Of a DNA stretch of 64,000 nucleotides, positions 18,613-62,783 are shown piece after piece. The translations under genes were made by a program, and so were the position numbers. The notes beneath the pieces were generated by a model that was given only the letters and a program-made list of their open reading frames with translations, ran no database searches and was not told the DNA's origin. The stretch comes from a candidate division WS6 bacterium OLB20 (GTDB lineage Bacteria; Patescibacteriota; Dojkabacteria; B142; OLB20), in NCBI GenBank assembly GCA_001567355.1, contig JYNZ01000002.1, positions 199,477-263,476 on the forward strand, in the 5' to 3' direction. Numbering within the stretch: the stretch's first letter is position 1; the number at the start of each line of letters is the position of its first letter.

Positions 18613-19281
18613 ATGCTTGGCAGTATGGGATACATAAACTGGGGCGAGAAAACAGTGGATGTCACGGATGATCAGGCGGTATCCTCCGCGTATGATGAGG
18701 GGTATGTATTTATCAGAACGTCCCCTGGCGCAATGCAGAAGACAAGATCGCTGCGGGTTGATCTTGCAAAGTTCACTCTCAATTCAGAGAACAGGCGGGT
18801 ACTTCGCAAGCTGCCCGGTCTCTCAGTGCAGAGCCGCGGTCTGCCGATACCAAAAGAGGAGTACGATTGGAATATCCATCGCACCGGAAAAGAATTCTAC
18901 GGAAAAAAGTTTAATGATATCTCGTTTTCTGCTGCCCGCATAAGGTATCTGCTGACGTCTCCCGAAATGCACTTTTCGACGCTGCTGCAGTATGCTGTGG
19001 ATTCTGTCACTGCAGGCTATGCGATCTGTTATGCTAACGGCGACTTGCTGCACTACGCGTATCCGTTTTACGAGTTTGAGAACTATCCTGCAAACCTCGG
19101 GATGGCGATGATGGTGCATGCAATCCTTCTGTCTAAAGAGACTGGCAGAAAGTACTGCTATCTTGGATCAGTTCGTTCCGTCAGAGATCTTTACAAGCTG
19201 CAGTTTTCGGGACTGAGCTACTACGACCGGACCGGATGGTCGTCTGACCTGGACCCACTTAAGGCAGAGCTCAGGCAATAG
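18613..19281 (+). CDS. hypothetical protein, possibly aminoacyl-tRNA-dependent transferase-like (ATE/Bpt or FemAB-like fold)
   Basis: 222 aa. Weak resemblance to Bpt/ATE C-terminal region (…AICYANGDLLHYAYPFYEF… KYCYLGS). Tentative call. Confidence 0.25.
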   Translation: MLGSMGYINWGEKTVDVTDDQAVSSAYDEGYVFIRTSPGAMQKTRSLRVDLAKFTLNSENRRVLRKLPGLSVQSRGLPIPKEEYDWNIHRTGKEFYGKKFNDISFSAARIRYLLTSPEMHFSTLLQYAVDSVTAGYAICYANGDLLHYAYPFYEFENYPANLGMAMMVHAILLSKETGRKYCYLGSVRSVRDLYKLQFSGLSYYDRTGWSSDLDPLKAELRQ

Positions 19282-25118: not shown

Positions 25119-26185
25119 GTCGCCAGTGACCGCATAACAGTTACAAGACGGCGCAGTTCACGGACAGACTGTCGCTCTTCTGTGGAGTGCGAAAACTCGC
25201 TGCCATCAGCAAGATTGATGCAAAGCAGACCGCGGTCATTGAAGATGTTCGCATCAGAAACGCCCCAGCTTCTTAGCTGCTTTGGCTTAAGACCTGCTGC
25301 AGAAATTACTGCTGCTGTTTCGGTAACAAATGCTCTGCCTGCTCCTTCGGTATGACGGTATCCCGGGTTTTCGCGTACCCAGTCGATCGTATAGGTGGCA
25401 CCCATCCTGTAACAGACTTTTTCTACCATCCGTGTAAATCGTTTCTTGTGCTGGTCAAGCTCTTTCTCGCGAAAGCTGCGCAGCTCTCCTGCAAGTGTCA
25501 TTGCACCCGGGACAGTATTTCTGACTGAACCTGCATGCACTATGCCGATATTTATCACTGACATATCATCAAGCCTGCCCAGGGCAAACTTGGTCAGCAG
25601 TTTTTGCAGAACTGTCAGCGTGTTAATTCCCTGCTCAGGTACAGACGCGTGCGCATCTTTACCGTTAAGCACCAGATCGAACCGTTCATAGATTGGCGAT
25701 GCGGTGACAATTGTACCGACAGGATTTGACGAATCAAAGCAGTAGCCTTTACCTGCCCGTAACAGCGAGATATCCAGGTTTACCGCTCCGTAGTTACCGA
25801 TTTCTTCTGATCGTGTCAGAATAATGTCGACAGGAAGTGTCTTGATCTGCGATTCGGAGGTCTCGGCAAGAAACTCAAGCATTGCAGCAATCGCCGCCTT
25901 GTTGTCGGCTCCAAGAATGGTTCTGCCATCTGATACAAGGTAGCCACCCTTTACAGTCGCTTTGATTCCCCGCCCGGGTTCAACAGTATCCATATGAGCT
26001 GCAAAAAAGACAGGTTCTCCGCTGCCATCCTTGCGGGCCACCAGGTTGCCGTAGCTGTCAGCTGTGACGTTCAGCCCCAGCTTCACAAGTCTGTCTGACA
26101 TATGTTTCGCAAACTCATCTTCACGCCCGGTCGGCGAATCGATTGCTACCAGCTCGATAAATGTATCAACAAGCCTGTTTTTCAT
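25115..26185 (-). CDS. M20/M42-family metallopeptidase (tripeptidase/PepT-like)
   Basis: N-terminal LVDTFIELVAIDSPTGRE and metal-binding HMDTV motif. Length of 356 aa fits the family. Confidence 0.7.
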   Translation of the reverse strand: MKNRLVDTFIELVAIDSPTGREDEFAKHMSDRLVKLGLNVTADSYGNLVARKDGSGEPVFFAAHMDTVEPGRGIKATVKGGYLVSDGRTILGADNKAAIAAMLEFLAETSESQIKTLPVDIILTRSEEIGNYGAVNLDISLLRAGKGYCFDSSNPVGTIVTASPIYERFDLVLNGKDAHASVPEQGINTLTVLQKLLTKFALGRLDDMSVINIGIVHAGSVRNTVPGAMTLAGELRSFREKELDQHKKRFTRMVEKVCYRMGATYTIDWVRENPGYRHTEGAGRAFVTETAAVISAAGLKPKQLRSWGVSDANIFNDRGLLCINLADGSEFSHSTEERQSVRELRRLVTVMRSLAT

Positions 26186-31522: not shown

Positions 31523-32965
31523 GAGCAGGGATCATACCTCTGAAGCTGTGGCTTCCCATAAAAATAACAACGGATCGGTCATGTTCTTTAATAATACCAG
31601 ACAGCGTTGCGACAAGTTCCGGGTCGTCTGAAACAACTGTAATCCTCTCGTCATTCAGGCTTCGGCCAGTTCGCTTTCGTCCATGTGGATCGTGTCACTT
31701 TTCGGTAATCTGGTAAACCGTGGGAAATACACAGCATCGGCATCCGCAAACGCATCCTTGTATTCGGAAAGCGATGCGGCAACTCTGTTGCCGGTGTTGG
31801 GCTCAAATACTGCTGCAATATAGGCATCAGGGTAATCTGTTCTGACAGCATGCAGGGCACCGCGGGCTTTGGGTGGTGAACTGCCAAAGTCATCAATGAT
31901 CACAGTATGCTCGTTCTCAAACCGGACTTCGAGACGTCTGCGTATTCCCGAGAACTTCGAGATAGCTTCCTGTATCCGTTCCTTGCGGATACCGAGTTCG
32001 TATGCAAGTGCCCCGGCAGCCAGCAGATTCTCCTCGTTAAATTCGCCGATCAGTTTACGCTCATATGGAATAATCTCAGGACTGTCTGTATCCCTTACAA
32101 AGGACGGCAACGGTTTTGACCCGCGCATCAGTATCCAGTCGGGCTTTGCGTGAGCAGTTGTATGATCCGCGGCATAAAACACAACTCTGCATGCAGCGTT
32201 TTTCACAGCTTCAACTATATGTATATCGGCGGCATTGGCAACAATAAGACCTTCTGCGGGTACCTGACTGATGAGCCCCGTAAATGCATCAAGATAAGAC
32301 TCCTTTGTGGGAAACAGGTCCGGGTGATCCCACTGCATTGCTGTCAGGACAAGATATACGGGCGAATACAGCAGAAACTTGGAGCGCCTGTCATCGGTCG
32401 AAATCAGGTATTCATCACCTTCGACAACACTGTACGATTGTTTGCCGCCTTGCATTACGGGTAGCGTTCCATCAGTTGACAATCCCCCGAACATCCAGCC
32501 TGGATTGTTACCGGCATGTGAGAGTATTGCAGCAACAGCTGCTGTAGTTGTCGTTTTGCCGTAAGTTCCGGCAACAACAATCGACCTGGCCGGGTTTATT
32601 ACATACTCCTGCAGAACTGCAGGGTAGGTTTTGACAGTTAACCCAAGCCGGAGAGCCTCAGTATACTCCTTGTTGCTGCTGCCTTTTGTCCCCTGAAACA
32701 CAACAAGGTCAGGGTGTCTTCCGTCCACGGTCAGACGCTCCGGTTTAAATCCGGGCATGACCTCAATCTCCTGCTCGGCAAGAAACGTACTGACAGGCGG
32801 ATAGAAGCCTTTATCAGAACCGGTAACCTTCCAGCCTAGCTGACGGAACATTGCCGCTACTCCTGAGGTGGTTACACCGGCGATACCAATTATATGTACC
32901 CAGTTGTCCATACTACCTGTAAGATACTTGAATACATTCATATAACGCAATCTCCAGAGAAACAA
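31491..32965 (-). pseudogene. murC: UDP-N-acetylmuramate--L-alanine ligase (MurC/Mpl family); last ~50 codons out of frame after a 1-nt indel (C2 vs C3 near 31658)
   Basis: N-terminal HIIGIAGVTTSGVAAMF...GWKVTGSD, Mur ligase central and C-terminal domains. The -1 frame continues as LNDERITVVSDDPELVATLSGIIKEHDRSVVIFMGSHSFRG, which matches the MurC C-terminus. Confidence 0.7.
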
Positions 32966-36019: not shown

Positions 36020-36898
36020 ATGAATACAGACGTAACAATTACAACAGTTGGTGTGATCTATGACACAGAGGGCAGGCTGCTTGTCACAAAACGTGCTGCA
36101 CAGGAAGATCACGCGGCAGGGGTTTACTCGTATCCAGGAGGGAAACTTGAGTATGACGGCAGCAGCGACGGCAGGGATACGATGTTTATCCTTGAAGACA
36201 ATCTGCGCAAAGAAATAAAAGAGGAAACCGGGATCGAAACAGGAGAACTTACCTACCTGAGCTCTCATGCATTCGTTAAAGAATCAGGATCAAAGGTCGT
36301 CATTGTAGCCTATGCAGCCGAGTATGTTGCTGGCGAGGCACTGGCAGTGGAGGCGAGCGAAGTCAGCGAAGTGCGCTGGATCAGCCGTGATGAAATCGAT
36401 GCAGTGATTGAGTATGAGTCTGTCAGGATTGTTTACCGTCAGGCAGCAGACTACATCGCAGCACAGAATGCTCTCTACCACGTGCAGCTTGGTGCCATGG
36501 TTATTAATGAGCAGGAGGAGTTTTTACTGGTTCGCTACGCAGAACGTCCCGACCATCTTGAAGTACCGAAAGGTGCTCTGCACAGAAGTATCAAGGGAAG
36601 CTGGGAAGCAATGGAGCAGGAGACAGCCAGAACCGTGTTTCAACAGACCGGCGTTGAGGTGGCAGACGGACAGATCCCGTTTACTGATCAGATTCTCATG
36701 GATAAAGAGCGGTTTGATACTGTCATGCAGTACTTTATCTGCAGATATCAATACGGTACGGCAATGATTAAATCACCTGAAACTGTTACCGAGGTCGTCT
36801 GGGTGCATATCAACGATATTGACCGTTCAGAGGTCAACGAAAAAGACTATCTGATGCTTTACAAGGCGCACGATTTTCTGTCTGCGCTCCGCACTTAA
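36020..36898 (+). CDS. tandem Nudix hydrolase (two Nudix folds)
   Basis: Canonical Nudix box GGKLEYDGSSDGRDTMFILEDNLRKEIKEETGIE in the first half. Degenerate second Nudix-like half (VPKGALHRSIKGSWEAMEQETARTVFQQTGVE). Confidence 0.75.
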   Translation: MNTDVTITTVGVIYDTEGRLLVTKRAAQEDHAAGVYSYPGGKLEYDGSSDGRDTMFILEDNLRKEIKEETGIETGELTYLSSHAFVKESGSKVVIVAYAAEYVAGEALAVEASEVSEVRWISRDEIDAVIEYESVRIVYRQAADYIAAQNALYHVQLGAMVINEQEEFLLVRYAERPDHLEVPKGALHRSIKGSWEAMEQETARTVFQQTGVEVADGQIPFTDQILMDKERFDTVMQYFICRYQYGTAMIKSPETVTEVVWVHINDIDRSEVNEKDYLMLYKAHDFLSALRT

Positions 36899-50825: not shown

Positions 50826-52739
<1,914 letters not shown>

Positions 52740-52767
52740 TGTCCGGTCGTAAAATATAAACTATCAG

Positions 52768-53298
52768 CTACGATTGATATCTGGCAGTGACGACCTTGGC
52801 CGTCCGGAAAACTGTTCCATTTGATTTTTTGTACCCTTTGCTTTCAACATGCATGACTGTGTTATCCTCTTTTTCGGAGTGAGCCGGCATAGTTGTGATC
52901 GCCTCCATCGTCTCAGGGTCAAATCTGTCTCCTTCGTTTACCTCGATTACTTCAAGCCCGATATCCTTGAGCACTCCCTCCAGCTTCTCAAACACCATGC
53001 TGAGTCCGTCAAGCTGTTTTTCGGGACCGGCATCCTTGCCGCTGTGTTTTACTGATCGGTAGTAGTCATCAATAATGTCAGCCAGACTGTGCATCAGCAT
53101 ACTGTTAGCCTGTTCCTTCATGGCTGCACGTTCTGCATCCATCCGCTTGCGATAATTCTGAAAGTCAGCCAGAGCACGAAGCTTTGCTTCATTTGCCTGT
53201 TCAAGCTGTGACTGCAGCTCACTGATGCGGTCATTGCTCTGATCTGTGACAGTATCGTCGCGTACGTTACTGCTGTCTGACTGTGTATCAGTTGCCAT
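52768..53298 (-). CDS. grpE: nucleotide exchange factor GrpE
   Basis: Coiled-coil N-terminus and GrpE C-terminal beta domain. Sits between hrcA and dnaK. Confidence 0.9.
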   Translation of the reverse strand: MATDTQSDSSNVRDDTVTDQSNDRISELQSQLEQANEAKLRALADFQNYRKRMDAERAAMKEQANSMLMHSLADIIDDYYRSVKHSGKDAGPEKQLDGLSMVFEKLEGVLKDIGLEVIEVNEGDRFDPETMEAITTMPAHSEKEDNTVMHVESKGYKKSNGTVFRTAKVVTARYQS

Positions 53299-53322
53299 AT
53301 GTTGATTCTAACAGGTAATTTT

Positions 53323-54045
53323 TTACCAGCCGCTCACAACCTGTGAGAGGTTGGTGGCAATAAATTCGAGCAGTGGAATGTTACGGGCATAGTTCATCCG
53401 GTTGGGACCTACAAGTGCCAGATATCCGTCTTTGCCACCATGCAGTTTTACAGGTGAAAACAGCATTGTTGTATCTGAAAAGATACCGTGTCCAGTATCC
53501 TCTCCGATCAGGATCCGTATCTGCTTGTCACCCCGATATCTGTTGAACATCTTACGCAGCAGACTGTTATCCTCGATCACTGCAAAAATATCACGCAGTT
53601 CTTCTTTACCTGCATAATCTGGCTTGCTGATCAGGTATGAAAATCCGTTATAGTAGGCACGGGACTCCATCGAAAAGACAGCAAGATTGCCGGTCTGCGC
53701 CGCCAGATGCTGCAGAGCGCGGTAAATAAGACTGTCACTGTCAAATCTTGCCTGAAACAGCTCTTCACGTATGCTGGCGCGCTCTTTTACCTCAAGTTCT
53801 TCAAGATCACTAAGCAGACGGTCGATAAAAAACTTAAACCCCATGTTTGTGGGAACGCGTCCGGATGATGAATGCGGCTTTTCAAGATACCCCTGCTTAA
53901 CAAGCTCTGCCATCTCGTTTCTGATCGTGGCAGGGCTGACTCCAAGACGGTACTTACTGGCAAGGTTCACCGAGCCGACTGCCTCAGCACTCTGAATGAA
54001 TTCATCAATAATTGCCTTGAGCAGCTTGCTCTGTCGTGGTGTCAT
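53323..54045 (-). CDS. hrcA: heat-inducible transcription repressor HrcA (compact, 240 aa)
   Basis: N-terminal wHTH (MTPRQSKLLKAIIDEFIQSAEAVGS). C-terminal LVGPNRMNYARNIPLLEFIA. Operon order is hrcA-grpE-dnaK. Confidence 0.8.
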   Translation of the reverse strand: MTPRQSKLLKAIIDEFIQSAEAVGSVNLASKYRLGVSPATIRNEMAELVKQGYLEKPHSSSGRVPTNMGFKFFIDRLLSDLEELEVKERASIREELFQARFDSDSLIYRALQHLAAQTGNLAVFSMESRAYYNGFSYLISKPDYAGKEELRDIFAVIEDNSLLRKMFNRYRGDKQIRILIGEDTGHGIFSDTTMLFSPVKLHGGKDGYLALVGPNRMNYARNIPLLEFIATNLSQVVSGW

Positions 54046-54078
54046 TGCCGGATATACTAGTTCACGGTACTATACCAG

Positions 54079-54108
54079 TTAGCAGAAAAGACTGTCAAGT
54101 GCTAAGCG
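54079..54108 (-). promoter_or_regulatory. degenerate CIRCE-like inverted repeat upstream of hrcA
   Basis: Minus-strand TTAGCACTT-N9-TTCTGCTAA. Matches the CIRCE arms at TTAGCA/TGCTAA with a 9-nt spacer. Lies about 35 nt upstream of the hrcA start. Confidence 0.4.
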
Positions 54109-55819
54109 GTCGGGCTGGTGGAATGATTATCTGTGCAGTGAGATTGTCTGAGGTCCCGCGTGCAAGTGCAAGTTTTTTCAGGGACAGCATTACCTGCTCA
54201 GGACTCATACCGTTTCTGATATCGGCAGCAGCTGCAGACAGCTCCGCGTTTGAGATCCGCTCAAAAAAACCGTCCGAACCGATTAAAAGCATATCACCGG
54301 GTGCAATAGTTCCGCTTACTGTATGAATATTCCGTCGGGGATTACGCTGGCGATCCACACCGACATCATCCACAATCAGATTACTGAAGACCGTACGCAG
54401 GATCATGTTCTGAACGTCAGCAGGCATGGTATCAAACCGTTCTCTGAAAAGGCGGAAGGATATGTCAGCTTCGGATCCCTGATACACTGTCTGCCGGAGC
54501 TCCTCTTTTTCTCTGTCTGTCAGCTCCGAAAAAGCTGTACGGACATATTCAGTATTGTATGGTTTACCCCCAAGAGAGTTGCAGAACTGATAAAAGTCCA
54601 TAAGTACGGACTCATACCTGGCGTACTCGTCACTGCTCAGCTGCTCACGAACGCGGCTGTCAGTCAGTCGCAGGTCTTCATACGCGTTTCGCATGTTTGC
54701 AATCTGCGTATCGGCTCCTTTATGTGTATCCAGCAGTTCTGCCACATCTCCATCCACAGTCAACAGGAACGCAGGCGTATCGCCTGCATATGCGATTTCG
54801 TAGTGATGACCGGTAATCTGTGCCATTGTTGCAGTGGTCTTGCATCCGTTTATCCGTCTGCGAAGATAGGAGAGGGGATTGCTGCCTTTTGCCAACCATT
54901 CCGGGCGGAAGTGCAGTGTTTCAATATCCTCGGCAGACAAATCAAGTGTATCACCGACCCTGACAGGCAGACCTGTAATCAGACCGTAAACCAGACGTGC
55001 AGCATTATCAAGTTCGTGCTGATCATAACCGTGACCGGGTTCCCTAAAACCATTAAGCAGGTCTGAAGGTCTGACCTTGAGCGCAAATGCAGGCAGCACA
55101 GCAACGATTGCAGCATACTCATCAGGTATTTCGCTCCAGTGCTCAGGGTCTAGAAACCAGTCAATCCCCAGAAACGACAGATTATCACGGATGTTAAAAA
55201 TAGCATCCTCAAGTTCAATATCAGTTAGCTCATTCAGCGGTAGGGCCCGTTTGAGCAGCTTACTGACGTGTGATTCGGGATCAGGATTGGCAGCATGCAG
55301 ATCAGCAAGCATTTTGTCCAGCTGCTGCCGCGAAGCAGGGATGTCCTTACTGTTGAACATCAAGGTGGAGATGCAGTTTGCAGACGTGATTCTTACCACA
55401 TCTTCGGCAGCCATAAACGGCCGGTAGGTTTTCTCCAGGAGATCCGCAGGTGCGAGCGCCTCACCGTTGTTCAGTACATCCCGTACAGCGGTCATAACAG
55501 TTGCTGCTGCCAGATCACCTCGATTTTTTACACCGACTCCATCATAAACTGCGGTATACGTTGTGCCTGGCTCAACCAGATGAACAGTCTGAGCAGCATC
55601 GTTATTTTCGGTTCGGGTAAAGATTCGCCTCTTGCCTGCCTCTGTCCCGCCGATATCTGTCAGGGACGCAACACGCGTCCCGTCTGGTAGAGTCGCTGAT
55701 TTTTCCTTATGGCTCAGACCCGGATTTATCGAGGTCTCCTGAAGAGCAGGCAGCTTACCGGTTTCACCTGTATGCAGCCGGTCTGTGTGACCCCCCGGGA
55801 TTAGCGCGGATGTAGCCAT
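54095..55819 (-). CDS. PP2C-family (PPM) Ser/Thr phosphatase-like protein with a large internal insertion
   Basis: PPM motifs AVYDGVGVKNRGDLAA near the N-terminus and LLIGSDGFFERISNAEL...ARGTSDNLTAQII at the C-terminus. The two are separated by about 300 aa of unassigned sequence. Confidence 0.5.
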   Translation of the reverse strand: MATSALIPGGHTDRLHTGETGKLPALQETSINPGLSHKEKSATLPDGTRVASLTDIGGTEAGKRRIFTRTENNDAAQTVHLVEPGTTYTAVYDGVGVKNRGDLAAATVMTAVRDVLNNGEALAPADLLEKTYRPFMAAEDVVRITSANCISTLMFNSKDIPASRQQLDKMLADLHAANPDPESHVSKLLKRALPLNELTDIELEDAIFNIRDNLSFLGIDWFLDPEHWSEIPDEYAAIVAVLPAFALKVRPSDLLNGFREPGHGYDQHELDNAARLVYGLITGLPVRVGDTLDLSAEDIETLHFRPEWLAKGSNPLSYLRRRINGCKTTATMAQITGHHYEIAYAGDTPAFLLTVDGDVAELLDTHKGADTQIANMRNAYEDLRLTDSRVREQLSSDEYARYESVLMDFYQFCNSLGGKPYNTEYVRTAFSELTDREKEELRQTVYQGSEADISFRLFRERFDTMPADVQNMILRTVFSNLIVDDVGVDRQRNPRRNIHTVSGTIAPGDMLLIGSDGFFERISNAELSAAAADIRNGMSPEQVMLSLKKLALARGTSDNLTAQIIIPPARPLST

Positions 55820-56622
55820 TACTGTTGCTGCTCAACATAAGGTATTGTTACTCTCCTGAGTCGTCTCAGGCCGTTGTCTTCGTAATCCTTAAGCAGTCCC
55901 TCAAGCGTCCAGTTTCTTCCGTCCTGGATCTCAAGCCAGTTCTGATCCTTGAGATGTGCTGTCTGATCCGTAACCTCGATCCTGCCGTGCCTGATGCCGT
56001 TGTCATCACCATACTGTTCTGATGAATGGACATAATCAATCCAGAGTACGCGGTCATCTTCACGCCCGACACGTTCGACAAGGAGGATATGATGTGCGTT
56101 TTTCTGCAGTCCCTTGCTTCTGATCAGATCCCCGGGACGAACATCCTGAATGGGGACAGGCACAGTGTTCGCAGGACTTGTGAGCGTATTTGCACCGGTG
56201 TTTTCGACGGGCCTGAGAAGCCTACGCAACTTTGCCGTCAATCCGCGTTCAGGATAGACAAGATACTGATCAATTGTACCCATGTGTTTTTCTGCCAGGA
56301 TGGCATTAAGAACATGCACAACAAATCCCGAGCAATCTATGCCAATATCGCAGTCCTGCAGAAACGCTCTCAGATCAGCTGCCGAGGCCTGCTGAACCGC
56401 AAATCCCTTGACCTGGGCAAGCACCATGACTTCACGTTCCATTTCTTTGGGATCACCCTTGCCGACCATGACACGCAAACCACCTTTCTGTTTGCGTTTG
56501 TTCATATAGTACGGTGCTTTGACACGCTTACCGCCAAGCTCAAGGTGCTCGTAGTCAGCAATCACGTCGAGACCGGCATCGGGTAGAGAATAGATAGTCA
56601 TATCAGTGTAATTGTCGTGCAA
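55819..56622 (-). CDS. hypothetical Cys-His protein (papain/NlpC-P60-like fold candidate)
   Basis: DCSGFVVHVL with a candidate catalytic Cys. AHHILLVER about 80 aa downstream. Translationally coupled to its neighbours. Confidence 0.35.
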   Translation of the reverse strand: MHDNYTDMTIYSLPDAGLDVIADYEHLELGGKRVKAPYYMNKRKQKGGLRVMVGKGDPKEMEREVMVLAQVKGFAVQQASAADLRAFLQDCDIGIDCSGFVVHVLNAILAEKHMGTIDQYLVYPERGLTAKLRRLLRPVENTGANTLTSPANTVPVPIQDVRPGDLIRSKGLQKNAHHILLVERVGREDDRVLWIDYVHSSEQYGDDNGIRHGRIEVTDQTAHLKDQNWLEIQDGRNWTLEGLLKDYEDNGLRRLRRVTIPYVEQQQ

Positions 56623-58027
56623 ATGAAATCAGCGTCTCGATACTCCAGGGGGCGGGTTTTCCATCAGAACCGATCAGACCCTGCGTGGCCTGGATACGGA
56701 CAGCCTCGTTACCTTCGGCAATGACAGTCCCTTTTCTGGGCGTAAGAATAAGAACGCCTGGATATTCACGTGTGTCTTCAATGGCATATGTTTTGTGCTG
56801 CAGAATCATTGGTTTATCCTGGTCTTCATCAAGAAACACAGTACCCGGCACGACCTCATTATTAAAACGATCTATTGCGCTGTTGTCACTCAAAAGCCGG
56901 TAAATACCCATTGCTATGTCTGATCCTGCAGTAAAGGATTCATCAGCACGCAGCATCATCTGAGCGTAATTAAGCGGTTCAAGTCCCGCTCGATTGTAGT
57001 CACTGACAGACAGTCCATGATCTATGCCGGTAAATGCAGCAAGATGCAGCATCGAAAGCGGCACCTGGCCGTGCATCAGCTGCAGCCGTGTATGAAACGA
57101 CACCGAAGCAGGCTGACGTGCGTTGATTTCGATGATATTCACCCGGTCACCGACAATCATGTCGATACCGAACAGACCGCGGTAGCCCTTGCTGTGCATG
57201 TATGCTCCCAGTCTTTCAATGTTGGCAAGAATTGACTCTTTAACTGCATCCGTTATCCCTGAACGGTAACTGAAGTCGTTTCCGATTGTTGCACCGGGAT
57301 CATCAGTCAGCCCTTCTACGCCGGTTATCTGATAGCTGAGCCCGGCACAGAATGTACCTGCATCAGTGACGCATGCATTAAGTGTGTACGGCAGTCCTTC
57401 TGCAAATGCACTGATTCGTGCACTTCTGCTCGGGAACTGCTGCTTCAGGCTGTCGTATGCAGCACTGCTGTCGATAAAATATGTTGCATTACCGCTGTGT
57501 CCGCGGTTGAACTGGATAACAAAGGCAGATCCGAACCCGGCTGCAAGTGTTGCATAGTCATGCTCACTCAGCATTATTACAGCCATACGAGGCGTATCAG
57601 TTCCTGCTGCAGCAAAGTGATGCGTCTGGCTGAGTTTTTCCTCAAAGCTGCGGTTGAGCTCGCCACTTGTGTTAAGGAGTGTAAAGCCCTTCGCAGTGAC
57701 AGCCTTTTCAAACCTGCCACTTACTTTAAAGGTCTGCACCCAGGCATCAGTGATATTCTTGGTGTTCAGATACTCTGTAAATTCTGATGATGCAAAAACA
57801 CGGGCCGCCGTCTCTGCTGTCAATGAACCCGGGTCGGAATGTTCTGCAAAACAAAAGTATTCAACACCGAGTTTATCAAAGTACTCGCGATAATAACTGT
57901 CCGTGACGTGGATGTTGTGAATGTTGTCCAGTGTGAGCTCCAGCCCAAGACCGCGTTCCGGGTCTCTACTTACGTAGAGCAGCGGTCGTTCATTTAACTT
58001 TGCCTGCAGTGCGTCAGACAGTGACAT
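56603..58027 (-). CDS. ATP-grasp domain ligase
   Basis: C-terminal ATP-grasp signature (GLFGIDMIVGDRVNIIEINARQ). 474 aa. Confidence 0.55.
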   Translation of the reverse strand: MSLSDALQAKLNERPLLYVSRDPERGLGLELTLDNIHNIHVTDSYYREYFDKLGVEYFCFAEHSDPGSLTAETAARVFASSEFTEYLNTKNITDAWVQTFKVSGRFEKAVTAKGFTLLNTSGELNRSFEEKLSQTHHFAAAGTDTPRMAVIMLSEHDYATLAAGFGSAFVIQFNRGHSGNATYFIDSSAAYDSLKQQFPSRSARISAFAEGLPYTLNACVTDAGTFCAGLSYQITGVEGLTDDPGATIGNDFSYRSGITDAVKESILANIERLGAYMHSKGYRGLFGIDMIVGDRVNIIEINARQPASVSFHTRLQLMHGQVPLSMLHLAAFTGIDHGLSVSDYNRAGLEPLNYAQMMLRADESFTAGSDIAMGIYRLLSDNSAIDRFNNEVVPGTVFLDEDQDKPMILQHKTYAIEDTREYPGVLILTPRKGTVIAEGNEAVRIQATQGLIGSDGKPAPWSIETLISFARQLH

Positions 58028-58535
58028 TGGAATATACCAGCAGCCTGCCGTTTAACAGTTTGCGGTCAGGCTTGCGGTCATAAAATGAAAACGTGTTACT
58101 GAATACGGTTGCACCAGGTTTTGCCTGTGCACTGATTTTGTGTGCAATCTTCTGCATTACGGCAGGGTAGAGGTAGGTAATGAAAACATCATACTCACCG
58201 AAGTCATGATGCAGAAAATCATCTCTGATGATATTGATTTTGTTTGCTGCAAAAAGATTCCGCATACGCATGATCAAAGTCAGAAACGGGTTTATCTCAA
58301 ACGCGTCAACACGGTGGCCCTCCTTCGCAAGAGCAAACGCAACACGTCCGTCACCAGCACCGAGTTCTGCAATCCTGAGTGTATTGCCATTTTCATTTAC
58401 AGCCTCTACAAGTCCATCACGGAATTTTCTGCTGCTCGGGTAGTATGGTGCACCCTTATAAATCGAGTATACCCAGTAAAAGATATACACCCAGGCCACA
58501 ATCAGCAGTCCGCTCCAGAATATCAGATCTATCAT
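58014..58535 (-). CDS. class I SAM-dependent methyltransferase
   Basis: Motif I LRIAELGAGDGRVAFALA and the post-I acidic residue (VDAFEI). Confidence 0.65.
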   Translation of the reverse strand: MIDLIFWSGLLIVAWVYIFYWVYSIYKGAPYYPSSRKFRDGLVEAVNENGNTLRIAELGAGDGRVAFALAKEGHRVDAFEINPFLTLIMRMRNLFAANKINIIRDDFLHHDFGEYDVFITYLYPAVMQKIAHKISAQAKPGATVFSNTFSFYDRKPDRKLLNGRLLVYSNVTV

Positions 58536-59417
58536 CGTCCGCTCATAACAGCTACAGGATACTTGTATTCATAACCATGCGCAACAGCTTTCTGCCAGGC
58601 GGCAAGCGCCAGCAGCGAGTTAAAAGAATATCCAGGTGCAGCATCCCTGGCATTGAGCAGTTGCTCATCGCTGATCACCCAGCCGCTGCCGTCACTTGCA
58701 CGAATCAGCTCTGTTACGTCGTTACGTCGCAGCACAACTCTGTCAACAATGCAGTCGCTCAGGCTCGACCCGGCAGGTAAGAAGTCCGAATCAAACTGTC
58801 CGGCTATGGGGTTGATGCGCACATTCTGACAGACATGTACCGCAACATTTTTCTGCAGACGGATAAATTCACGCGCGATTGCCACCGAGCTTGTTGCGCT
58901 GCTGCACGGGATGAATACGGCATCAATATGTGGTATCTGTTCAGCAAGCTCTGAAGCGATGGTTGCAAAACCAGGTAGAGCAGCTTCATCCTTTGAGCCA
59001 CGCAGATTAACGGCTTCGTGGTGTCGTGCAAACAGAATAGCATCTGATTTTGCCTTTCTGCCGCTGTGAATCCGGATCAGCGCTCCCTCGTACTTTTTGA
59101 GTTCATCCATTTTGTGCCCCGCAATTGTCTCGGACACAAAAAATGTCCAGTTCAGCACCTGCTGCTGTACATACCGCTGCCGCTGCGATTGCAGCATTGC
59201 CTGATGACGAGATCACAAACCGTTCCTGACCGCTGCGTATGTGAAAACCGATCTGGTATGCAAGACTGCGATCTTTAAACGATCCGGTCGGGTTTTCGTG
59301 CTCATTTTTAAGGTGTATTGTGCCTTCATTGGTCTCAAGCACGGTCAGAGTGGTGTCTCCAGGGCTTGTATAACGGTATTCAACCGGCAGATCAGATACT
59401 GGGTCACGGTTCCACAT
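58532..59417 (-). pseudogene. PLP-dependent enzyme of the Trp-synthase beta/cysteine synthase fold, split by a frameshift in the T6 run (plus-strand A6 59138-59143)
   Basis: N-terminal fragment carries the PLP-lysine motif ENPTGSFKDRSLAY and SSGNAAIAAA. The downstream frame continues FVSETIAGHKMDELKKYEGALIRI. Removing one T restores a protein of about 325 aa. Confidence 0.65.
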
Positions 59418-59495
59418 GGGTTGCCAATAATCAGGTAATCTCTGTACAATGCAAACGCATATCCTGCACTTGAATTACATATTAATCAACTTCAG

Positions 59496-59678
59496 ATGGA
59501 CGAGCAAACTACAACAACCGGAAAAACTCTCACATGCATTGAATGCAAAAACGAAACACAGCTGTCTGACACCCTGAAGCAGGGTGATGTCGTCGAGTGT
59601 GAATTCTGCGGAATCGAGTTCGAGGTCACAGAAGCAGGCGTTGAATATACACTCTCACTTATCGAAGACGAGAAGTAA
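59496..59678 (+). CDS. LysW-like zinc-ribbon protein (amino-group carrier protein candidate)
   Basis: CxxC-18-CxxCG spacing matches LysW. CEFCGIEFEV resembles the LysW CEDCGAELEV. Acidic C-terminus (…IEDEK), but the terminal residue is Lys rather than Glu. Confidence 0.45.
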   Translation: MDEQTTTTGKTLTCIECKNETQLSDTLKQGDVVECEFCGIEFEVTEAGVEYTLSLIEDEK

Positions 59679-59703: not shown

Positions 59704-59776
59704 GCTGGAGTAGCTCAGCTGGTAGAGCAGCGGTATCGTAAACCGTCGGTCAAGGGTTCAATTCCCTTCTCCAGCT
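59704..59776 (+). tRNA. tRNA-Thr (anticodon CGT)
   Basis: 73-nt cloverleaf. Acceptor GCTGGAG/CTCCAGC; D-stem GCTC/GAGC; anticodon stem GCGGT/ACCGT; loop ATCGTAA; T-arm AAGGG-TTCAATT-CCCTT. CCA is not encoded. Confidence 0.8.
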
Positions 59777-59906: not shown

Positions 59907-61658
59907 ATGGAGCCGCGTGAGTCATACCGACCACAACTGAATCAGCAGATGCTTCGTGCGCTGCTGCTTGCACTGATTGCTGCACTAGTTGCATCAGGCA
60001 AAGCAGATGCGCAATCTCTGGATCCGGGATCCTACCTTAATGCTCTGCCGGACTTTATGTATCCGCCGGCTGAACCCTGCATATATAACCCCGGTGGGAC
60101 TGCACTTCATCACAGTGTAATCCCGGACATCGGAGGTATTACAAATGCTGTTCAAGTTGATCAGCTTGATGAGCAATGGTTTCCATCTGTGGATCGCTTC
60201 AGATCAACGTTTGAACCAGGCTCAGCCTCGCGCGCAAACATTGAGGAAGCTATCAACCTTGCCGATCCTGATGGCAGACTGATTCAGTCTATGGGGTATA
60301 CAACTGTAGCTGACTACGTCAGCAATATCTGGATCATACCCGGTCATGAGGACGGGAACACTGTGAACGTAGACACCATCATCAACGGACGGCACAGCTG
60401 GGGTACGACGCTGCAGCTGTATAACTGCACGATCAGCTCTTTTGGTCCGCGAATGAATACAAATGTAATAGCTTTTTCTTCGGATTCGGTTAACAGTAGA
60501 AACGGCCAATACGTATACGAGTCGTTTATTGCCGAGGAGGCACTTCAGTCAGTAACATTCTACTCTGATGTCTTAAAGGCGCAACTGCAGGGATTTAGTG
60601 CAGAAGCGTTTTTTGAGGAATGGACAAACGGTCACATCCGCCTTCAGCATGAACTGATTGACGCGATCTTTCTGCATGAGGCATATGGCAGCAGTTTAAA
60701 CTCGCTTGCGGCTTCGGGCTATCAGATATATGCAGGCAGACTGAGTTCGGGCCGGCAGCTTGACGGTACTGTTCCCGACCTAGCCACAGAACTGATAACT
60801 ATTACAGGTCTCAACACTGACGATGCTCGTGCGCACGGCATCAATATTAACAGCCCGCTGGAATTTGCACAGGCGATGACAGACCCGGTCACAGCTGTGT
60901 TTGTCGATGCCTATGTTATTCACAGAACCGGCATGCCTGTTGCCGGTCATCTTTACGGTAAACGTACCAACAACGGCTTTGATGTCGGCCAGTATGATCC
61001 TGCACCGATCGGTCCCAACCAGCTGCAGCTGTATCTGATGCTTTACGGGCCTGCTGCTGAGGGCGAGATCGCATCACCCACACCCGAACTTATACCCACG
61101 CTGACGCAGACAGCAACTCTGACACAGGTGCCGACTCTCGAACCATCAGCGACACTGTCAGCTACTCCGTCTCCGACACCAACATATACAGATGTTCCAA
61201 CCGAAACGGCAACTGTGGTTACACCTGAGCCGGCAGACACAGAGGAGCCTGCAAGTCCTGCCCCTTCTATAACACCTGAAGCTTCGATAACACCTGTACT
61301 GACCTCAACTGAGGAGATGCAAGCTACGCTTGTGGCAACGATACTGGCTGCAAGCCCTGAAAGTACTCCTACCATTGTTGTTTCTGACACAGGTATGGAG
61401 GTAACAGGAACAGATGAGCAATCCGGCACTGCATTGACTGCGCTTCTGTGTCTTGTTGGACTTGCCGGACTGATGGCAGCTGCAGGAGGTGCCATACTGA
61501 TTAAAGACCTGCGCCGGACAAAGGCCAGACCGGCACGGCAGCAGCGTTCTACTCAGCGCTCAGAGGTGCGACAGAATGCAAGAGTAAACAGACGTCAGGC
61601 TGAAGATTACGACAGCAGACTTAAACGCATCAAGCAGAAACGCGACCGCAGACTGTAA
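59907..61658 (+). CDS. cell-surface protein with Thr/Pro-rich stalk and C-terminal membrane anchor
   Basis: Signal peptide (LRALLLALIAALVASGKADA). Low-complexity T/P/S-rich region from about aa 390 to 500. C-terminal TM (LTALLCLVGLAGLMAAAGGAILI) followed by a basic tail. Confidence 0.55.
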   Translation: MEPRESYRPQLNQQMLRALLLALIAALVASGKADAQSLDPGSYLNALPDFMYPPAEPCIYNPGGTALHHSVIPDIGGITNAVQVDQLDEQWFPSVDRFRSTFEPGSASRANIEEAINLADPDGRLIQSMGYTTVADYVSNIWIIPGHEDGNTVNVDTIINGRHSWGTTLQLYNCTISSFGPRMNTNVIAFSSDSVNSRNGQYVYESFIAEEALQSVTFYSDVLKAQLQGFSAEAFFEEWTNGHIRLQHELIDAIFLHEAYGSSLNSLAASGYQIYAGRLSSGRQLDGTVPDLATELITITGLNTDDARAHGININSPLEFAQAMTDPVTAVFVDAYVIHRTGMPVAGHLYGKRTNNGFDVGQYDPAPIGPNQLQLYLMLYGPAAEGEIASPTPELIPTLTQTATLTQVPTLEPSATLSATPSPTPTYTDVPTETATVVTPEPADTEEPASPAPSITPEASITPVLTSTEEMQATLVATILAASPESTPTIVVSDTGMEVTGTDEQSGTALTALLCLVGLAGLMAAAGGAILIKDLRRTKARPARQQRSTQRSEVRQNARVNRRQAEDYDSRLKRIKQKRDRRL

Positions 61659-61697: not shown

Positions 61698-62783
61698 ATG
61701 GTATGCTTTATGTTACATACATCTTACGCAGTACGCGTGTACCAGCCACAGTTCTCTCTGACAAACAGAATGGTCATGAACCTCGTTAAACTCGAGGTTG
61801 AAAAGAGCCTGATTGAGCATGAGTCTCTCTCATCGCAGCAGAAAGGCAATCTTAAACTTCGTGCCAAGGCAGTCAATATGTTCCATATGGCTCATATCAT
61901 AGGCGTCGAGCTTACGTTAAAAGACGCGGAAAAAGCAGCTGAGGGCCGAAAGATCAAGACTGATGACGCACGTGGCATAATTCTAAACAACTACCGCAAC
62001 AGCATTGAGTTTGTGCGATCAAATATCACCGACACCTATGTGGATATTGACCTCAACATCATGCTGCATCTCAACAAAATACTGCTGACAGACTGGAAGG
62101 AGACCTGGGAGTCAAAATTCCGTACCGGTGGTGAGGACATCGATATGATCCTTGATAACTGGGTCGCGCTTCGTGATACTTCAATCGAAGCTGTGAGAAT
62201 CCAGGACGAACTGCTGCAGGTGCTGGACTGGTATAAGTCATCGATCGCCAAAGTACACAACATCATCCGGATTGGCGTACTGATTTACCGACTCATGCGT
62301 ATTTCGCCGTTTATGGTGGCAAACAAGCTCAGCATTATTGCTATTGCTGATTTTCTGCTGCAGAAGAACGGCTACCTCGAGCACACATACCTGCCTGCAA
62401 CCAGAAACTTTGATGTCTACGAGGACGAATACCGCGAAGCGTGGACACACGCAATTGAGCAGAACGAAGACGTGACACTCTGGCTGGAGCGTTTTATCCG
62501 CAATCTCTCTAATGACATGGTTGATGTGCGCGAAGAAATCGGAAAATCACAGCAGAGCGAGACCAAGTCAGCCCGGCAGCCGTTTCTTGACCTTAACAAG
62601 CGTCAGCTCAAGATCCTGCGCTATCTTCAGACCATCCCCACAGTTAAACGCGAGGATTACGTTCAGATGATGGACGTATCAACAATGACCGCATACCGCG
62701 ACCTTGATGCGCTTGTTCAGAAAAAACTGCTGAAGGTAGAAGGGAAGGGAAGAGGTACCCGCTACATGCTCTATAACAGGTAG
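61698..62783 (+). CDS. Fic/Doc-family-like protein with degenerate active-site motif and C-terminal wHTH
   Basis: Fic-like core with the motif position reading ISPFMVANKLS instead of HPFx[DE]GNGR. C-terminal winged-helix-like segment (LNKRQLKILRYLQTIP...GKGRGTRY). Confidence 0.4.
   Translation: MVCFMLHTSYAVRVYQPQFSLTNRMVMNLVKLEVEKSLIEHESLSSQQKGNLKLRAKAVNMFHMAHIIGVELTLKDAEKAAEGRKIKTDDARGIILNNYRNSIEFVRSNITDTYVDIDLNIMLHLNKILLTDWKETWESKFRTGGEDIDMILDNWVALRDTSIEAVRIQDELLQVLDWYKSSIAKVHNIIRIGVLIYRLMRISPFMVANKLSIIAIADFLLQKNGYLEHTYLPATRNFDVYEDEYREAWTHAIEQNEDVTLWLERFIRNLSNDMVDVREEIGKSQQSETKSARQPFLDLNKRQLKILRYLQTIPTVKREDYVQMMDVSTMTAYRDLDALVQKKLLKVEGKGRGTRYMLYNR

What the first reader, a model, noticed from the sequence alone, without database searches (positions are those of the whole stretch)
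54095..59678. Operon of PLP enzyme, SAM methyltransferase, ATP-grasp ligase, papain-like Cys-His protein and PP2C phosphatase, divergent from a LysW-like carrier gene
Five minus-strand genes overlap by 1-20 nt, which implies translational coupling and a single transcript. They sit 80 bp from a divergently transcribed 60-aa zinc-ribbon protein whose Cys spacing (CxxC-18-CxxCG) and CEFCGIEFEV segment match the LysW/ArgW amino-group carrier proteins. An ATP-grasp ligase together with a small acidic carrier is the hallmark of carrier-protein-mediated amino-acid biosynthesis or modification (LysW/LysX, AmCP systems). Adding a PLP enzyme, a methyltransferase and a papain-fold putative acyl- or peptidyl-transferase makes it resemble a small-molecule or peptide tailoring cassette. 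An uncertainty: the carrier ends in …EDEK rather than the usual C-terminal Glu.
Basis: partly seen in the sequence, partly recalled or inferred. Interest (0 to 1): 0.7.

Follow-up and report, generated by a model that had tools for sequence, protein, structure and literature searches.

The report
Lysine-tailed LysW-like carrier cassette in CPR bacteria
This is a gene set conserved across the tiny "candidate phyla radiation" bacteria, in which a LysW-like zinc-ribbon protein that always ends in lysine (not glutamate) sits with a threonine-synthase-like PLP enzyme, an ATP-grasp ligase and a cell-wall-type cysteine peptidase, usually among peptidoglycan-precursor genes. It looks like an undescribed carrier-protein pathway, not ordinary lysine biosynthesis.

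Summary
The genes are real. The window is candidate division WS6 (Dojkabacteria) bacterium OLB20. The 60-aa protein is a true LysW-type zinc ribbon: it passes the Pfam PF21344 cutoff, and a family profile's best solved-structure hits are LysW proteins.

The LysW/LysX reading holds only in part.
- All 62 complete homologues from the loci end in Lys (…IEEEK, …VDEGK), never LysW's …EDWGE.
- The PLP gene is threonine-synthase-like. In this genome it is split by a frameshift in an A6 run, and an independent assembly shows the same split.
- The PP2C gene is not conserved.

Among 41 species loci with full flanks, the NlpC/P60 peptidase is next to the ATP-grasp in 41. They are fused in four loci. LysW-like plus PLP genes occur in 36. 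Where both are found (55 loci), they are divergent neighbours in 54. The methyltransferase occurs in 24. Peptidoglycan genes (MurB, MraY, MurC, Fem-like, FtsW) flank or interleave in 26.

Best reading: a Lys-tailed carrier system that tailors an amino acid for cell-wall precursor synthesis. The chemistry is inferred, not shown. I found no literature on it.

The parts
59496..59678 (+). LysW-like zinc-ribbon protein (60 aa) with an acidic tail ending in an invariant C-terminal Lys (…LIEDEK): the putative carrier
   Evidence: PF21344 scores 39.2 bits (GA 27), but TIGR01206 and NF041070 fall below their cutoffs. A family profile's best PDB hits are LysW proteins. All 62 complete homologues end in K. 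In the representative library, 90 short hits end in K and 22 end in E, the latter mostly canonical …EDWGE tails.
59418..59495 (.). 78-bp divergent intergenic region between the carrier gene and the PLP-enzyme gene. It holds a promoter-like site at 59421-59450 (+).
   Evidence: One search finds TTGCCA-18-TACAAT (a consensus match only). The divergent adjacency of the two genes is conserved in 54 of 55 species loci. No Rfam family matches here.
58532..59417 (-). Threonine-synthase-like fold-type-II PLP enzyme gene, interrupted by a 1-base frameshift at the A6/T6 run 59138-59143
   Evidence: PALP matches both fragments. The family profile's best PDB hit is threonine synthase 6cgq at 108 bits. The PLP-Lys motif PTGSFKDR and the SSSGN loop are conserved. 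The window protein departs from the majority residue at only 3 of 38 well-conserved (at least 85%) family columns. The same split appears in an independent assembly.
58014..58535 (-). Class-I SAM methyltransferase (173 aa) with a hydrophobic N-terminal segment. It is an accessory component, found mainly in Dojkabacteria.
   Evidence: There are weak matches to Erm/KsgA N6-adenine methyltransferases and to an archaeal protein-lysine N-methyltransferase. The ELGAGDG motif is visible in the sequence. It is present in 24 of 41 full-flank loci.
56603..58027 (-). ATP-grasp carboxylate-amine ligase (474 aa), from a CPR-wide family
55819..56601 (-). Cytoplasmic NlpC/P60 (C40) cysteine peptidase or amidase (260 aa from the annotated ATG; 267 aa from the TTG at 56622), with extra N- and C-terminal regions
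54095..55819 (-). PP2C-like phosphatase (574 aa) with a roughly 340-aa insert. It appears to be co-transcribed here but is not a conserved member of the set.
   Evidence: PF00481 scores 28.6 bits and PF13672 25.6 bits. It has no homologue in the 88 other loci by jackhmmer. There is only a weak match to the gene at the same position in L001.

Best explanation
A CPR-specific carrier-protein system that is a sister of the LysW amino-group-carrier systems but uses different chemistry.

Proposed mechanism:
- The zinc-ribbon protein presents a flexible acidic tail whose invariant C-terminal lysine is the working residue.
- The ATP-grasp ligase makes an amide at that lysine. Variant (a) acylates its epsilon-amine with an amino-acid carboxylate, as PylC does with free lysine; this would be a reversed-polarity, 'carboxyl-group' carrier. 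Variant (b) re-adds lysine to the tail after removal, like the tubulin tyrosine ligase / vasohibin cycle.
- The threonine-synthase-like PLP enzyme, encoded back-to-back with the carrier, performs beta/gamma chemistry on or with the tethered residue.
- The methyltransferase, where present, N-methylates an amine.
- The NlpC/P60 cysteine peptidase releases the product.
- The product is used in peptidoglycan-precursor synthesis.

Shown: homology of each part, the invariant Lys tail, conserved synteny and fusions, and the linkage to mur genes.

Inferred: every chemical step, the substrate, and the link to the cell wall.
For: - The globular domain is LysW-type. In the 1.84-billion-protein library, the K-tail proteins and the canonical …EDWGE LysW proteins are recovered by one profile as two tail classes.
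- The terminal Lys is present in 62 of 62 complete homologues from divergent CPR classes, and Glu at position -2 is at least 90% conserved.
- Synteny in 41 full-flank species loci: P60-like 41, LysW-like plus PALP 36, MTase 24. Carrier and PALP are divergent neighbours in 54 of 55 loci, even when they lie 4-6 kb from the ligase. The carrier sits directly upstream of the ligase in L023 and L038.
- Ligase-peptidase fusions occur in four loci. Glutathionylspermidine synthetase/amidase has the same architecture (from my own knowledge).
- The peptidase's nearest folds cut gamma-D-Glu-|-Lys/DAP bonds, that is, an acidic residue followed by a diamino acid with a free carboxylate, like the tail's …E-K.
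- PG genes interleave with the set. Examples are MurB | ligase, peptidase, MraY, Fem/Ate-like, MurC | carrier <> PALP, and MurD-[carrier <> PALP-ligase]-FtsW-MurG-MurC-MurB, where the ligase stop abuts the ftsW start.
Against: - No biochemical evidence exists for any step.
- The residue before the Lys varies (E, G, M, I), which is odd for a peptidase that would read a Glu-Lys bond.
- Fold-type-II PLP enzymes normally need a free alpha-amino acid with a free carboxylate, and the family keeps the carboxylate-binding SSGN loop. The PLP enzyme may therefore act on a free substrate.
- In 5 of 41 loci the ligase-peptidase pair has no carrier or PALP within 6-8 kb, so the two modules can be separated.
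- Part of the mur linkage is shared ancestry of gene order (the Magasanikbacteria-type loci), not many independent events.
- In this genome the PLP gene is frameshifted.
Confidence: 0.45

Rival explanations
1. There are two separate modules that both serve the cell wall directly. The ATP-grasp ligase and the NlpC/P60 peptidase act on peptidoglycan precursors or salvaged muropeptides, adding and trimming a stem-peptide or bridge amino acid in the manner of Ddl, Asl or Mpl. The PLP enzyme makes a free amino acid (a D-amino acid or a Thr/Ser derivative). The zinc-ribbon protein is its regulatory or structural subunit, and its C-terminal Lys plugs the PLP active site, as the C-terminal Ile of serine acetyltransferase plugs CysK.
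For: - The ligase-peptidase pair is universal and is sometimes found without the carrier and PALP nearby.
- Carrier and PALP form the tightest pair, 54 of 55.
- The set is embedded in mur/dcw genes.
- NUDIX fusions to the ligase and NUDIX neighbours in 14 of 41 loci fit a nucleotide-linked substrate.
- The peptidase's nearest folds are murein DL-endopeptidases.
- After threonine synthase, the PALP profile also matches Ser/Asp racemases.
- CysK-SAT tail insertion is an established precedent for a PALP-family enzyme (from my own knowledge).
Against: - The LysW globular domain is otherwise known only as a carrier.
- The carrier gene sits directly upstream of the ligase, on the same strand, in L023 and L038.
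- All four genes stay within about 8 kb in 36 of 41 loci despite rearrangements.
Confidence: 0.3
2. A protein-tagging system of the Pup type. The small protein is conjugated through its C-terminus to targets by the ATP-grasp ligase and removed by the papain-fold peptidase.
For: The set contains a small protein with a conserved C-terminal motif, an amide ligase and a Cys peptidase, which together have the outline of ligase/deconjugase systems.
Against: - A PLP enzyme is the carrier's closest partner, and tagging does not explain that.
- A terminal Lys is not a typical conjugation handle.
- The LysW fold has no known tagging role.
- The conserved neighbours are metabolic cell-wall genes.
Confidence: 0.05
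3. A RiPP or other secondary-metabolite cassette, for example a graspetide-like Glu(-2)/Lys(0) lactam or a scaffold-built natural product.
For: The set combines an ATP-grasp with a small peptide. PGM1, BesA and a Streptomyces peptide ligase are among the near folds. A Glu at -2 and a terminal Lys could in principle form a lactam.
Against: - There is no leader/core organisation.
- The set is core, single-copy and syntenic with mur genes in hundreds of minimal CPR genomes. That pattern is unlike accessory biosynthetic clusters.
Confidence: 0.05
4. Canonical LysW/LysX lysine or arginine biosynthesis, as some database records name these proteins.
For: The Pfam LysW domain matches, and NCBI and JGI name some family members 'lysine biosynthesis protein LysW'.
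Against: - No member has a C-terminal Glu.
- The proteins score below the equivalog cutoffs.
- The ligase is not RimK/LysX type.
- No LysZ/Y/J/K genes are in any neighbourhood.
Confidence: 0.02

Closest known systems
LysW/ArgW amino-group carrier protein systems (LysW-LysX-LysZ-LysY-LysJ-LysK; AmCP systems of Thermus, Sulfolobus, Thermococcus and Streptomyces)
   Same: Both have a homologous zinc-ribbon globular domain, an acidic flexible C-terminal tail, co-encoding with an ATP-grasp amide ligase and a hydrolase that could release the product, and small size (50-65 aa).
   Different: - The terminal residue is an invariant Lys (…EEEK, …DEGK), not Glu (…EDWGE).
- The ligase is from another ATP-grasp clade.
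- The hydrolase is an NlpC/P60 Cys peptidase, not the M20 enzyme LysK.
- The tailoring enzyme is a ThrC-like PLP enzyme, and there is no kinase, reductase or aminotransferase.
- The taxon is CPR and the context is mur genes.
PylC (pyrrolysine biosynthesis: L-lysine N-epsilon-(3-methyl-D-ornithine) ligase)
Tubulin tyrosination cycle (TTL ATP-grasp ligase plus vasohibin transglutaminase-like Cys peptidase)
   Same: In both, a gene-encoded, near-invariant terminal residue sits on an acidic tail. An ATP-grasp could re-add it and a papain-superfamily Cys peptidase could remove it.
Glutathionylspermidine synthetase/amidase (GspSA)
   Different: The domain order and the ligase family differ. There is no carrier protein and no PLP enzyme.
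Cysteine synthase complex (the CysE C-terminal tail inserted in the CysK active site)
   Same: A partner protein with a conserved C-terminal residue is tightly associated with a fold-type-II PLP enzyme.
   Different: The partner here is a zinc ribbon ending in Lys, not an acyltransferase ending in Ile. The PLP enzyme is ThrC-like, not CysK. The interaction has not been tested.
Scaffold-peptide amino-acid derivatisation (PEARL/pearlin pathways, e.g. 3-thiaglutamate and ammosamide)
   Same: The logic is similar: an amino acid is built or modified at the C-terminus of a ribosomal peptide and then cleaved off.
   Different: PEARLs are tRNA-dependent LanB-like enzymes, not ATP-grasp enzymes, and their scaffolds are not zinc ribbons. 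Those pathways are secondary metabolism, not a core CPR gene set.

Membership tests
LysW/ArgW amino-group carrier protein | Zinc-ribbon globular domain (CxxC…CxxC) matching the LysW domain model | tested here: met
   PF21344 scores 39.2 bits against GA 27. A family profile's best PDB hits are LysW proteins 5k2m_E and 3wwl_A at E 5e-7 and 4e-6.
LysW/ArgW amino-group carrier protein | C-terminal Glu (…EDWGE tail) whose gamma-carboxyl carries the substrate amine | tested here: not met
   The window protein ends …IEDEK. All 62 complete homologues end in Lys. Canonical …EDWGE proteins form a separate, lower-scoring class.
LysW/ArgW amino-group carrier protein | Passes the curated equivalog models (TIGR01206, NF041070) | tested here: not met
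   It scores 17.0 bits against a cutoff of 53.2, and 29.4 bits against a cutoff of 75.
LysW/ArgW amino-group carrier protein | Partner ligase of the RimK/LysX/ArgX type | tested here: not met
LysW/ArgW amino-group carrier protein | Co-encoded LysZ/LysY/LysJ/LysK-type kinase, reductase, aminotransferase and M20 hydrolase | tested here: not met
   None is present in the window operon or in any Pfam-annotated neighbourhood. An M20 peptidase lies 30 kb away at 25115-26185 and is unlinked.
LysW/ArgW amino-group carrier protein | Covalent loading of a substrate on the tail | not testable with these tools
   This needs mass spectrometry of the carrier with the ligase.
ATP-grasp carboxylate-amine ligases | Three-domain ATP-grasp fold with the ATP-binding Lys and the E-x-N-x-R Mg/catalytic motif | tested here: met
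Biotin carboxylase (the database name of the window protein) | Biotin_carb_N / CPSase_L_D2 / Biotin_carb_C domains, passing PRK06524 | tested here: not met
   No such Pfam domains match. PRK06524 scores 98.9 bits against a cutoff of 684.
NlpC/P60 (C40) cysteine peptidases | Papain-like core with catalytic Cys (DCSG motif) and His | tested here: met
NlpC/P60 (C40) cysteine peptidases | Secreted or cell-wall-targeted, acting on mature murein | tested here: inconclusive
   I see no signal-peptide-like or transmembrane segment in the sequence, so it looks cytoplasmic, like YkfC-type recycling enzymes. No predictor was run.
Threonine synthase (ThrC) | Fold-type-II PLP enzyme with a PLP-Lys motif, closest to ThrC | tested here: met
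   The family profile scores 108 bits, full length, to B. subtilis ThrC 6cgq. The PTGSFKDR and SSSGN motifs are present.
Threonine synthase (ThrC) | Passes the ThrC equivalog models and keeps the ThrC phosphate-loop and substrate motifs | tested here: not met
   All ThrC models score far below their cutoffs. The family has P-x-SSGT in place of ThrC's GNAGN loop, and SLADAIVDR in place of TIATAIRIGNP.
Graspetide (microviridin-type) RiPP systems | MdnB/C-type macrocyclase and a leader/core precursor | tested here: not met

The most novel reading that the evidence does not exclude
The K-tail proteins are a new class of carrier, a mirror image of LysW. A ligase tethers an amino acid through its carboxyl group to the epsilon-amine of the carrier's C-terminal lysine. 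This leaves the alpha-amine free for PLP chemistry by the ThrC-like enzyme. A cysteine peptidase then releases a non-standard amino acid that CPR bacteria build into their peptidoglycan stem peptide or cross-bridge. That would be a previously unknown early step of cell-wall synthesis in a large bacterial radiation.
Probability: 0.2. Interest if true: 0.9.

Novelty: new variant of a known kind. Interest (0 to 1): 0.74.

Why it matters
All amino-group carrier proteins I know of (from my own knowledge) work through a C-terminal glutamate. A large sister family with an invariant C-terminal lysine, its own ligase, a PLP enzyme and a cysteine peptidase would extend carrier-protein biochemistry to new chemistry.

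The set is conserved across Dojkabacteria, Magasanikbacteria, Uhrbacteria, Colwellbacteria, Paceibacteria and Gottesmanbacteria. Relatives of the ligase were found in 359 stretches of species-representative genomes. It often sits inside the mur/dcw genes. It may therefore mark an unrecognised step in how these minimal, mostly uncultured episymbionts build or salvage their cell wall.

It also corrects a database error: some of these proteins are named 'lysine biosynthesis protein LysW' and 'biotin carboxylase-like'.

The system is small (four proteins, one of about 60 aa), so it is directly testable in vitro.

Tried and rejected
- Canonical LysW/LysX pathway: rejected on the tail, the ligase clade and the missing LysZ/Y/J/K genes.
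- PP2C as a system component: rejected. jackhmmer found it only in the window. A pairwise comparison with the L001 gene at the same position gave only short PP2C-motif matches.
- Frameshift as an assembly error: unlikely, because an independent Logan assembly has the same 104 + 192 aa gene calls. Advanced decay of the PLP gene also looks unlikely: the window protein departs from the majority residue at 3 of 38 well-conserved family columns, which is within the family range.
- The extra C-terminal domain of the long ATP-grasp form as a degenerate NUDIX domain, prompted by ATP-grasp-NUDIX fusions in other lineages: rejected (hhalign probability 0.4%).
- Riboswitch or leader RNA near the carrier and PLP genes: none found. 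Rfam matched only tRNAs in the window region and in eight loci with long intergenic gaps.
- Literature: seven full-text searches found no paper on a Lys-tailed LysW homologue or on this CPR gene set. The Iyer et al. 2009 amidoligase survey (PMC3268129) is not held. Two papers that mentioned both LysW and ATP-grasp were unrelated.
- A Foldseek search against the AlphaFold database was unavailable.
- I could not test whether ddl, alr, murI or murE are absent from these genomes, because only flanks of 10 kb or less can be fetched.
- The word-index homologue search with the 60-aa protein gave only 8 hits. The exhaustive profile search was needed to see the family.


Full report
**Origin and anatomy**

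The ATP-grasp protein is 100% identical to a protein of 'candidate division WS6 bacterium OLB20' (Dojkabacteria, candidate phyla radiation). On the minus strand lie, in order:
- a PALP-family gene (58532-59417);
- a 173-aa class-I methyltransferase (58014-58535);
- a 474-aa ATP-grasp (56603-58027);
- a 260/267-aa protein with a weak NlpC/P60 match (55819-56601 or 56622);
- a 574-aa PP2C-like protein (54095-55819).

A near-consensus promoter-like site at 54098-54069 precedes hrcA-grpE-dnaK, so the operon probably ends with the PP2C gene. Divergent, 78 bp away, is the 60-aa CxxC…CxxCG protein (59496-59678). A tRNA-Thr(CGT) follows it at 59704-59776.

**A correction to the observation**

The PLP gene is not intact. 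Its N-terminal part (59103-59417, PALP profile positions 19-88) and its C-terminal part (58532-59197, positions 82-252) are in different frames. They meet at an A6 run, 59138-59143, which is T6 on the coding strand. Deleting one base gives AELDIF-VSETIAGHK…, a 294-aa protein collinear with intact 303-343-aa homologues.

An independent Logan assembly of another run (SRR29904083) carries the identical ATP-grasp and the same 104 + 192 aa split. The frameshift is therefore probably real in this lineage. Apart from it, the protein departs from the majority residue at only 3 of 38 well-conserved (at least 85%) family columns, within the family range. This suggests either a recent inactivation or an expression that needs +1 slippage on UUU-U. 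I could not decide between these.

**Is the small protein LysW-like?**

Yes, as to its globular domain. Pfam Zn_ribbon_LysW scores 39.2 bits (cutoff 27), well above all other ribbon models. A profile of 40 family members hits the LysW proteins of Thermococcus kodakarensis and Thermus thermophilus best among all PDB sequences (E 5e-7 and 4e-6). Generic ribbons such as RPB12 come in at E 2e-3 or worse. It fails the curated equivalog models.

The decisive difference is the tail. I extracted the homologues from 88 related loci. Every complete one (62 of 62) ends in lysine: …IEEEK (20 among the 52 short-form proteins), …VDEGK (14), …IDEGK, …LEDEK, and …EPSEMMK in a subfamily with a long insert. Glu at position -2 is at least 90% conserved, and the four Cys, N19, G39 and K60 are invariant.

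An exhaustive profile search of 1.84 billion representative proteins returned 176 hits. Among the short ones, 90 end in K and 22 end in E, the latter mostly the canonical …EDWGE tail at lower scores. The K-tail proteins are therefore a discrete sister family of LysW. The named members I looked up are Gottesmanbacteria and Patescibacteria, and some are annotated 'lysine biosynthesis protein LysW'.

**Synteny**

Neighbourhoods of six diverse ATP-grasp homologues and 80 loci from GTDB species representatives (359 stretches encoded a relative) were searched. I used jackhmmer profiles on six-frame ORFs.

Among the 41 species loci with at least 6-7 kb on both sides:
- the P60-like gene is present in 41 of 41;
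- the LysW-like and PALP genes are present together in 36;
- the methyltransferase is present in 24;
- peptidoglycan genes are present in 26;
- a NUDIX gene is present in 14.

The P60-like gene lies next to the ATP-grasp in nearly every locus. The two are fused into one ORF in L052, L073, L076 and L077. In five loci the ATP-grasp is instead fused to a NUDIX domain.

The carrier gene is divergent from and adjacent to the PALP gene in 54 of 55 loci. This holds even where the pair lies 4-6 kb from the ligase. In L023 and L038 the carrier gene sits directly upstream of the ligase on the same strand.

The PP2C gene has no homologue in the other loci, apart from a weak PP2C-motif match at the same position in L001. 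The conserved set is therefore two modules, [carrier <> ThrC-like PLP enzyme] and [ATP-grasp + NlpC/P60], plus an optional methyltransferase.

Most record titles name CPR lineages: Dojkabacteria, Magasanikbacteria, Uhrbacteria, Colwellbacteria, Paceibacteria and 'Patescibacteria group'. Fourteen third-party-assembly records are titled 'uncultured Gammaproteobacteria'. Those that could be compared show the Magasanikbacteria-type gene order. I did not verify those labels.

**Link to peptidoglycan genes**

- In Magasanikbacteria-type loci the order is S30AE, MurB | ATP-grasp, P60-like, MraY (190.5 bits against a cutoff of 192), a Fem/arginyltransferase-like protein, a MurC/Mpl-like ligase | carrier <> PALP.
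- In L007 the set sits inside the dcw cluster: MurD-[carrier <> PALP-ATP-grasp]-FtsW-MurG-MurC-MurB. The ligase stop abuts the ftsW start.
- L055 (Uhrbacteria) has Fem, MurC, carrier, PALP, ligase, P60-like, MraY, FtsW, MurG.
- Several Dojkabacteria have ligase, P60-like, MurC, Fem.

Part of this is inherited gene order, but the arrangements differ enough between classes to suggest a functional link. In the window itself the neighbours are hrcA on one side and a Pro/Thr-rich protein plus a Fic/HTH protein on the other. A MurC-like gene and a Fem-like gene lie 22-40 kb away.

**What the enzymes are**

- PLP enzyme. The family profile matches threonine synthase best (108 bits, full length), then Ser/Thr dehydratases, Ser/Asp racemases and SbnA. 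The PLP-lysine motif and the SSGN loop are kept. The phosphate loop (SSGT) and the SLADAIVDR segment differ from ThrC.
- Methyltransferase. It has the GxGxG SAM motif and a hydrophobic N-terminus. It weakly resembles Erm/KsgA and an archaeal protein-lysine N-methyltransferase, which are amine N-methylases.

**Mechanism**

Shown:
- a LysW-type fold with an invariant terminal Lys on an acidic tail;
- obligatory pairing of the ligase with the Cys peptidase, including fusions;
- obligatory pairing of the carrier with the PLP enzyme;
- frequent co-location of all four genes, and of the set with mur genes.

Inferred: the tail Lys is the working residue of a carrier. Two variants fit.

(a) Reversed polarity relative to LysW. 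The ligase activates a small-molecule carboxylate and the carrier's Lys epsilon-amine attacks, as in PylC. The tethered amino acid keeps a free alpha-amine for the PLP enzyme. The peptidase, acting as an isopeptidase, releases the product.

(b) A removal and re-addition cycle, as for the C-terminal tyrosine of alpha-tubulin (TTL is an ATP-grasp; vasohibin is a papain-superfamily Cys peptidase). The PLP enzyme would modify the exposed Lys side chain in between, for example by beta-replacement with the epsilon-amine as nucleophile, as SbnA uses the amine of glutamate.

The peptidase's relatives cut after gamma-D-Glu and before a diamino acid with a free carboxylate, which resembles …E-K-COOH. 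Against this, the -1 residue varies (E, G, M, I).

I put 0.45 on the generic carrier reading. I put 0.3 on the main rival: ligase and peptidase act directly on peptidoglycan precursors or salvaged peptides, while the zinc ribbon is a subunit or regulator of the PLP enzyme whose tail plugs the active site as CysE's tail plugs CysK. Tagging, RiPP and canonical-LysW readings are unlikely.

**Comparison with the known, and novelty**

The system works like an amino-group-carrier system in outline. It fails the defining LysW tests: terminal Glu, LysX-type ligase, LysZ/Y/J/K partners and equivalog scores. I therefore file it as a new variant of that kind, not a member. Seven literature searches found nothing on it.

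If the carrier reading is right, it adds a second chemistry to carrier-protein-mediated amino-acid metabolism. It would also point to an unrecognised cell-wall-related step in a major uncultured radiation.

**Limits**

Noticed in passing
window 59138-59143 (A6 on +, T6 on the coding strand): A one-base frameshift splits the ThrC-like PLP gene into 104-aa and 192/221-aa ORFs. The same split is called in an independent Logan assembly (SRR29904083). Homologues elsewhere are intact. The site (AUU UUU UGU) would allow perfect +1 re-pairing of tRNA-Phe, so this could be a recent pseudogene or low-level recoding.
   Followed up: partly
window 59704-59776 (+); L001 6240-6312, L010 6730-6805, L013 4080-4152, L019 6007-6079 and others: A tRNA-Thr(CGT) gene lies just downstream of the LysW-like gene in the window, and within about 25-400 bp of it (often with tRNA-Gly(CCC)) in nine of the sampled Dojkabacteria loci. 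It was absent from the two Magasanikbacteria-type and one Uhrbacteria locus sampled. This is probably lineage synteny, but it is curious next to a threonine-synthase-like gene and, in other lineages, near Fem-like tRNA-dependent transferases.
   Followed up: partly
L052, L073, L076, L077 (ATP-grasp = P60-like); L053, L058, L059, L068, L075, L081 (ATP-grasp = NUDIX): In other CPR lineages the ATP-grasp is fused either to the NlpC/P60 peptidase or to a NUDIX hydrolase domain. Free NUDIX genes recur nearby, in 14 of 41 full-flank loci. A NUDIX partner hints at a nucleotide-linked substrate. This is unexplained.
   Followed up: partly
L005 4787-5179, L026, L027, L031, L033, L036, L037, L041, L043, L046, L048: A subfamily of the K-tail proteins has a 25-30-aa insert between the two Cys pairs and a long, low-complexity N-terminal extension. 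Its tails are less acidic (…EPSEMMK, …EPSELEK), but the terminal Lys is still invariant.
   Followed up: no
window 54069-54098 (-) and 50826-54045 (-): A near-consensus sigma-70-type promoter-like site (TTGACA-18-TATAGT with an upstream TG) overlaps the end of the PP2C gene, just upstream of an hrcA-grpE-dnaK operon. hrcA follows the gene set in about a dozen of the Dojkabacteria-type loci.
   Followed up: no
window 18613-19281 (+), 31655-32965 (-), 25115-26185 (-), 36020-36898 (+): Elsewhere in the window are a Fem/arginyltransferase-like protein, a MurC/Mpl-like Mur ligase, an M20 peptidase (the family of LysK/ArgE/DapE) and a NUDIX protein. In other CPR lineages the Fem-like, MurC-like and NUDIX genes sit right beside the carrier/ligase set.
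   Followed up: partly
P0398 (MBI3955058.1), P0309, P0001, P0127: Public records name K-tail proteins 'lysine biosynthesis protein LysW' and the ATP-grasp 'biotin carboxylase-like protein'. Both names are contradicted by the tail, the clade and the neighbourhood.
   Followed up: yes
window 59907-61658 (+) and 61698-62783 (+): A 583-aa protein has no Pfam match, a Pro/Thr/Ser-rich region and a C-terminal hydrophobic segment followed by a basic tail. Next to it is a 361-aa Fic-like plus DeoR-type HTH protein. Homologues of the Fic/HTH protein accompany the carrier gene in 21 loci and homologues of the 583-aa protein in 5, all of the Dojkabacteria type.
   Followed up: no
window 58440-58535 (-), MTase residues 1-30: The methyltransferase begins with a strongly hydrophobic stretch (MIDLIFWSGLLIVAWVYIFYWVYSIY), which suggests membrane anchoring. 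That would be unusual for a small-molecule or protein N-methyltransferase in a cytoplasmic pathway.
   Followed up: no
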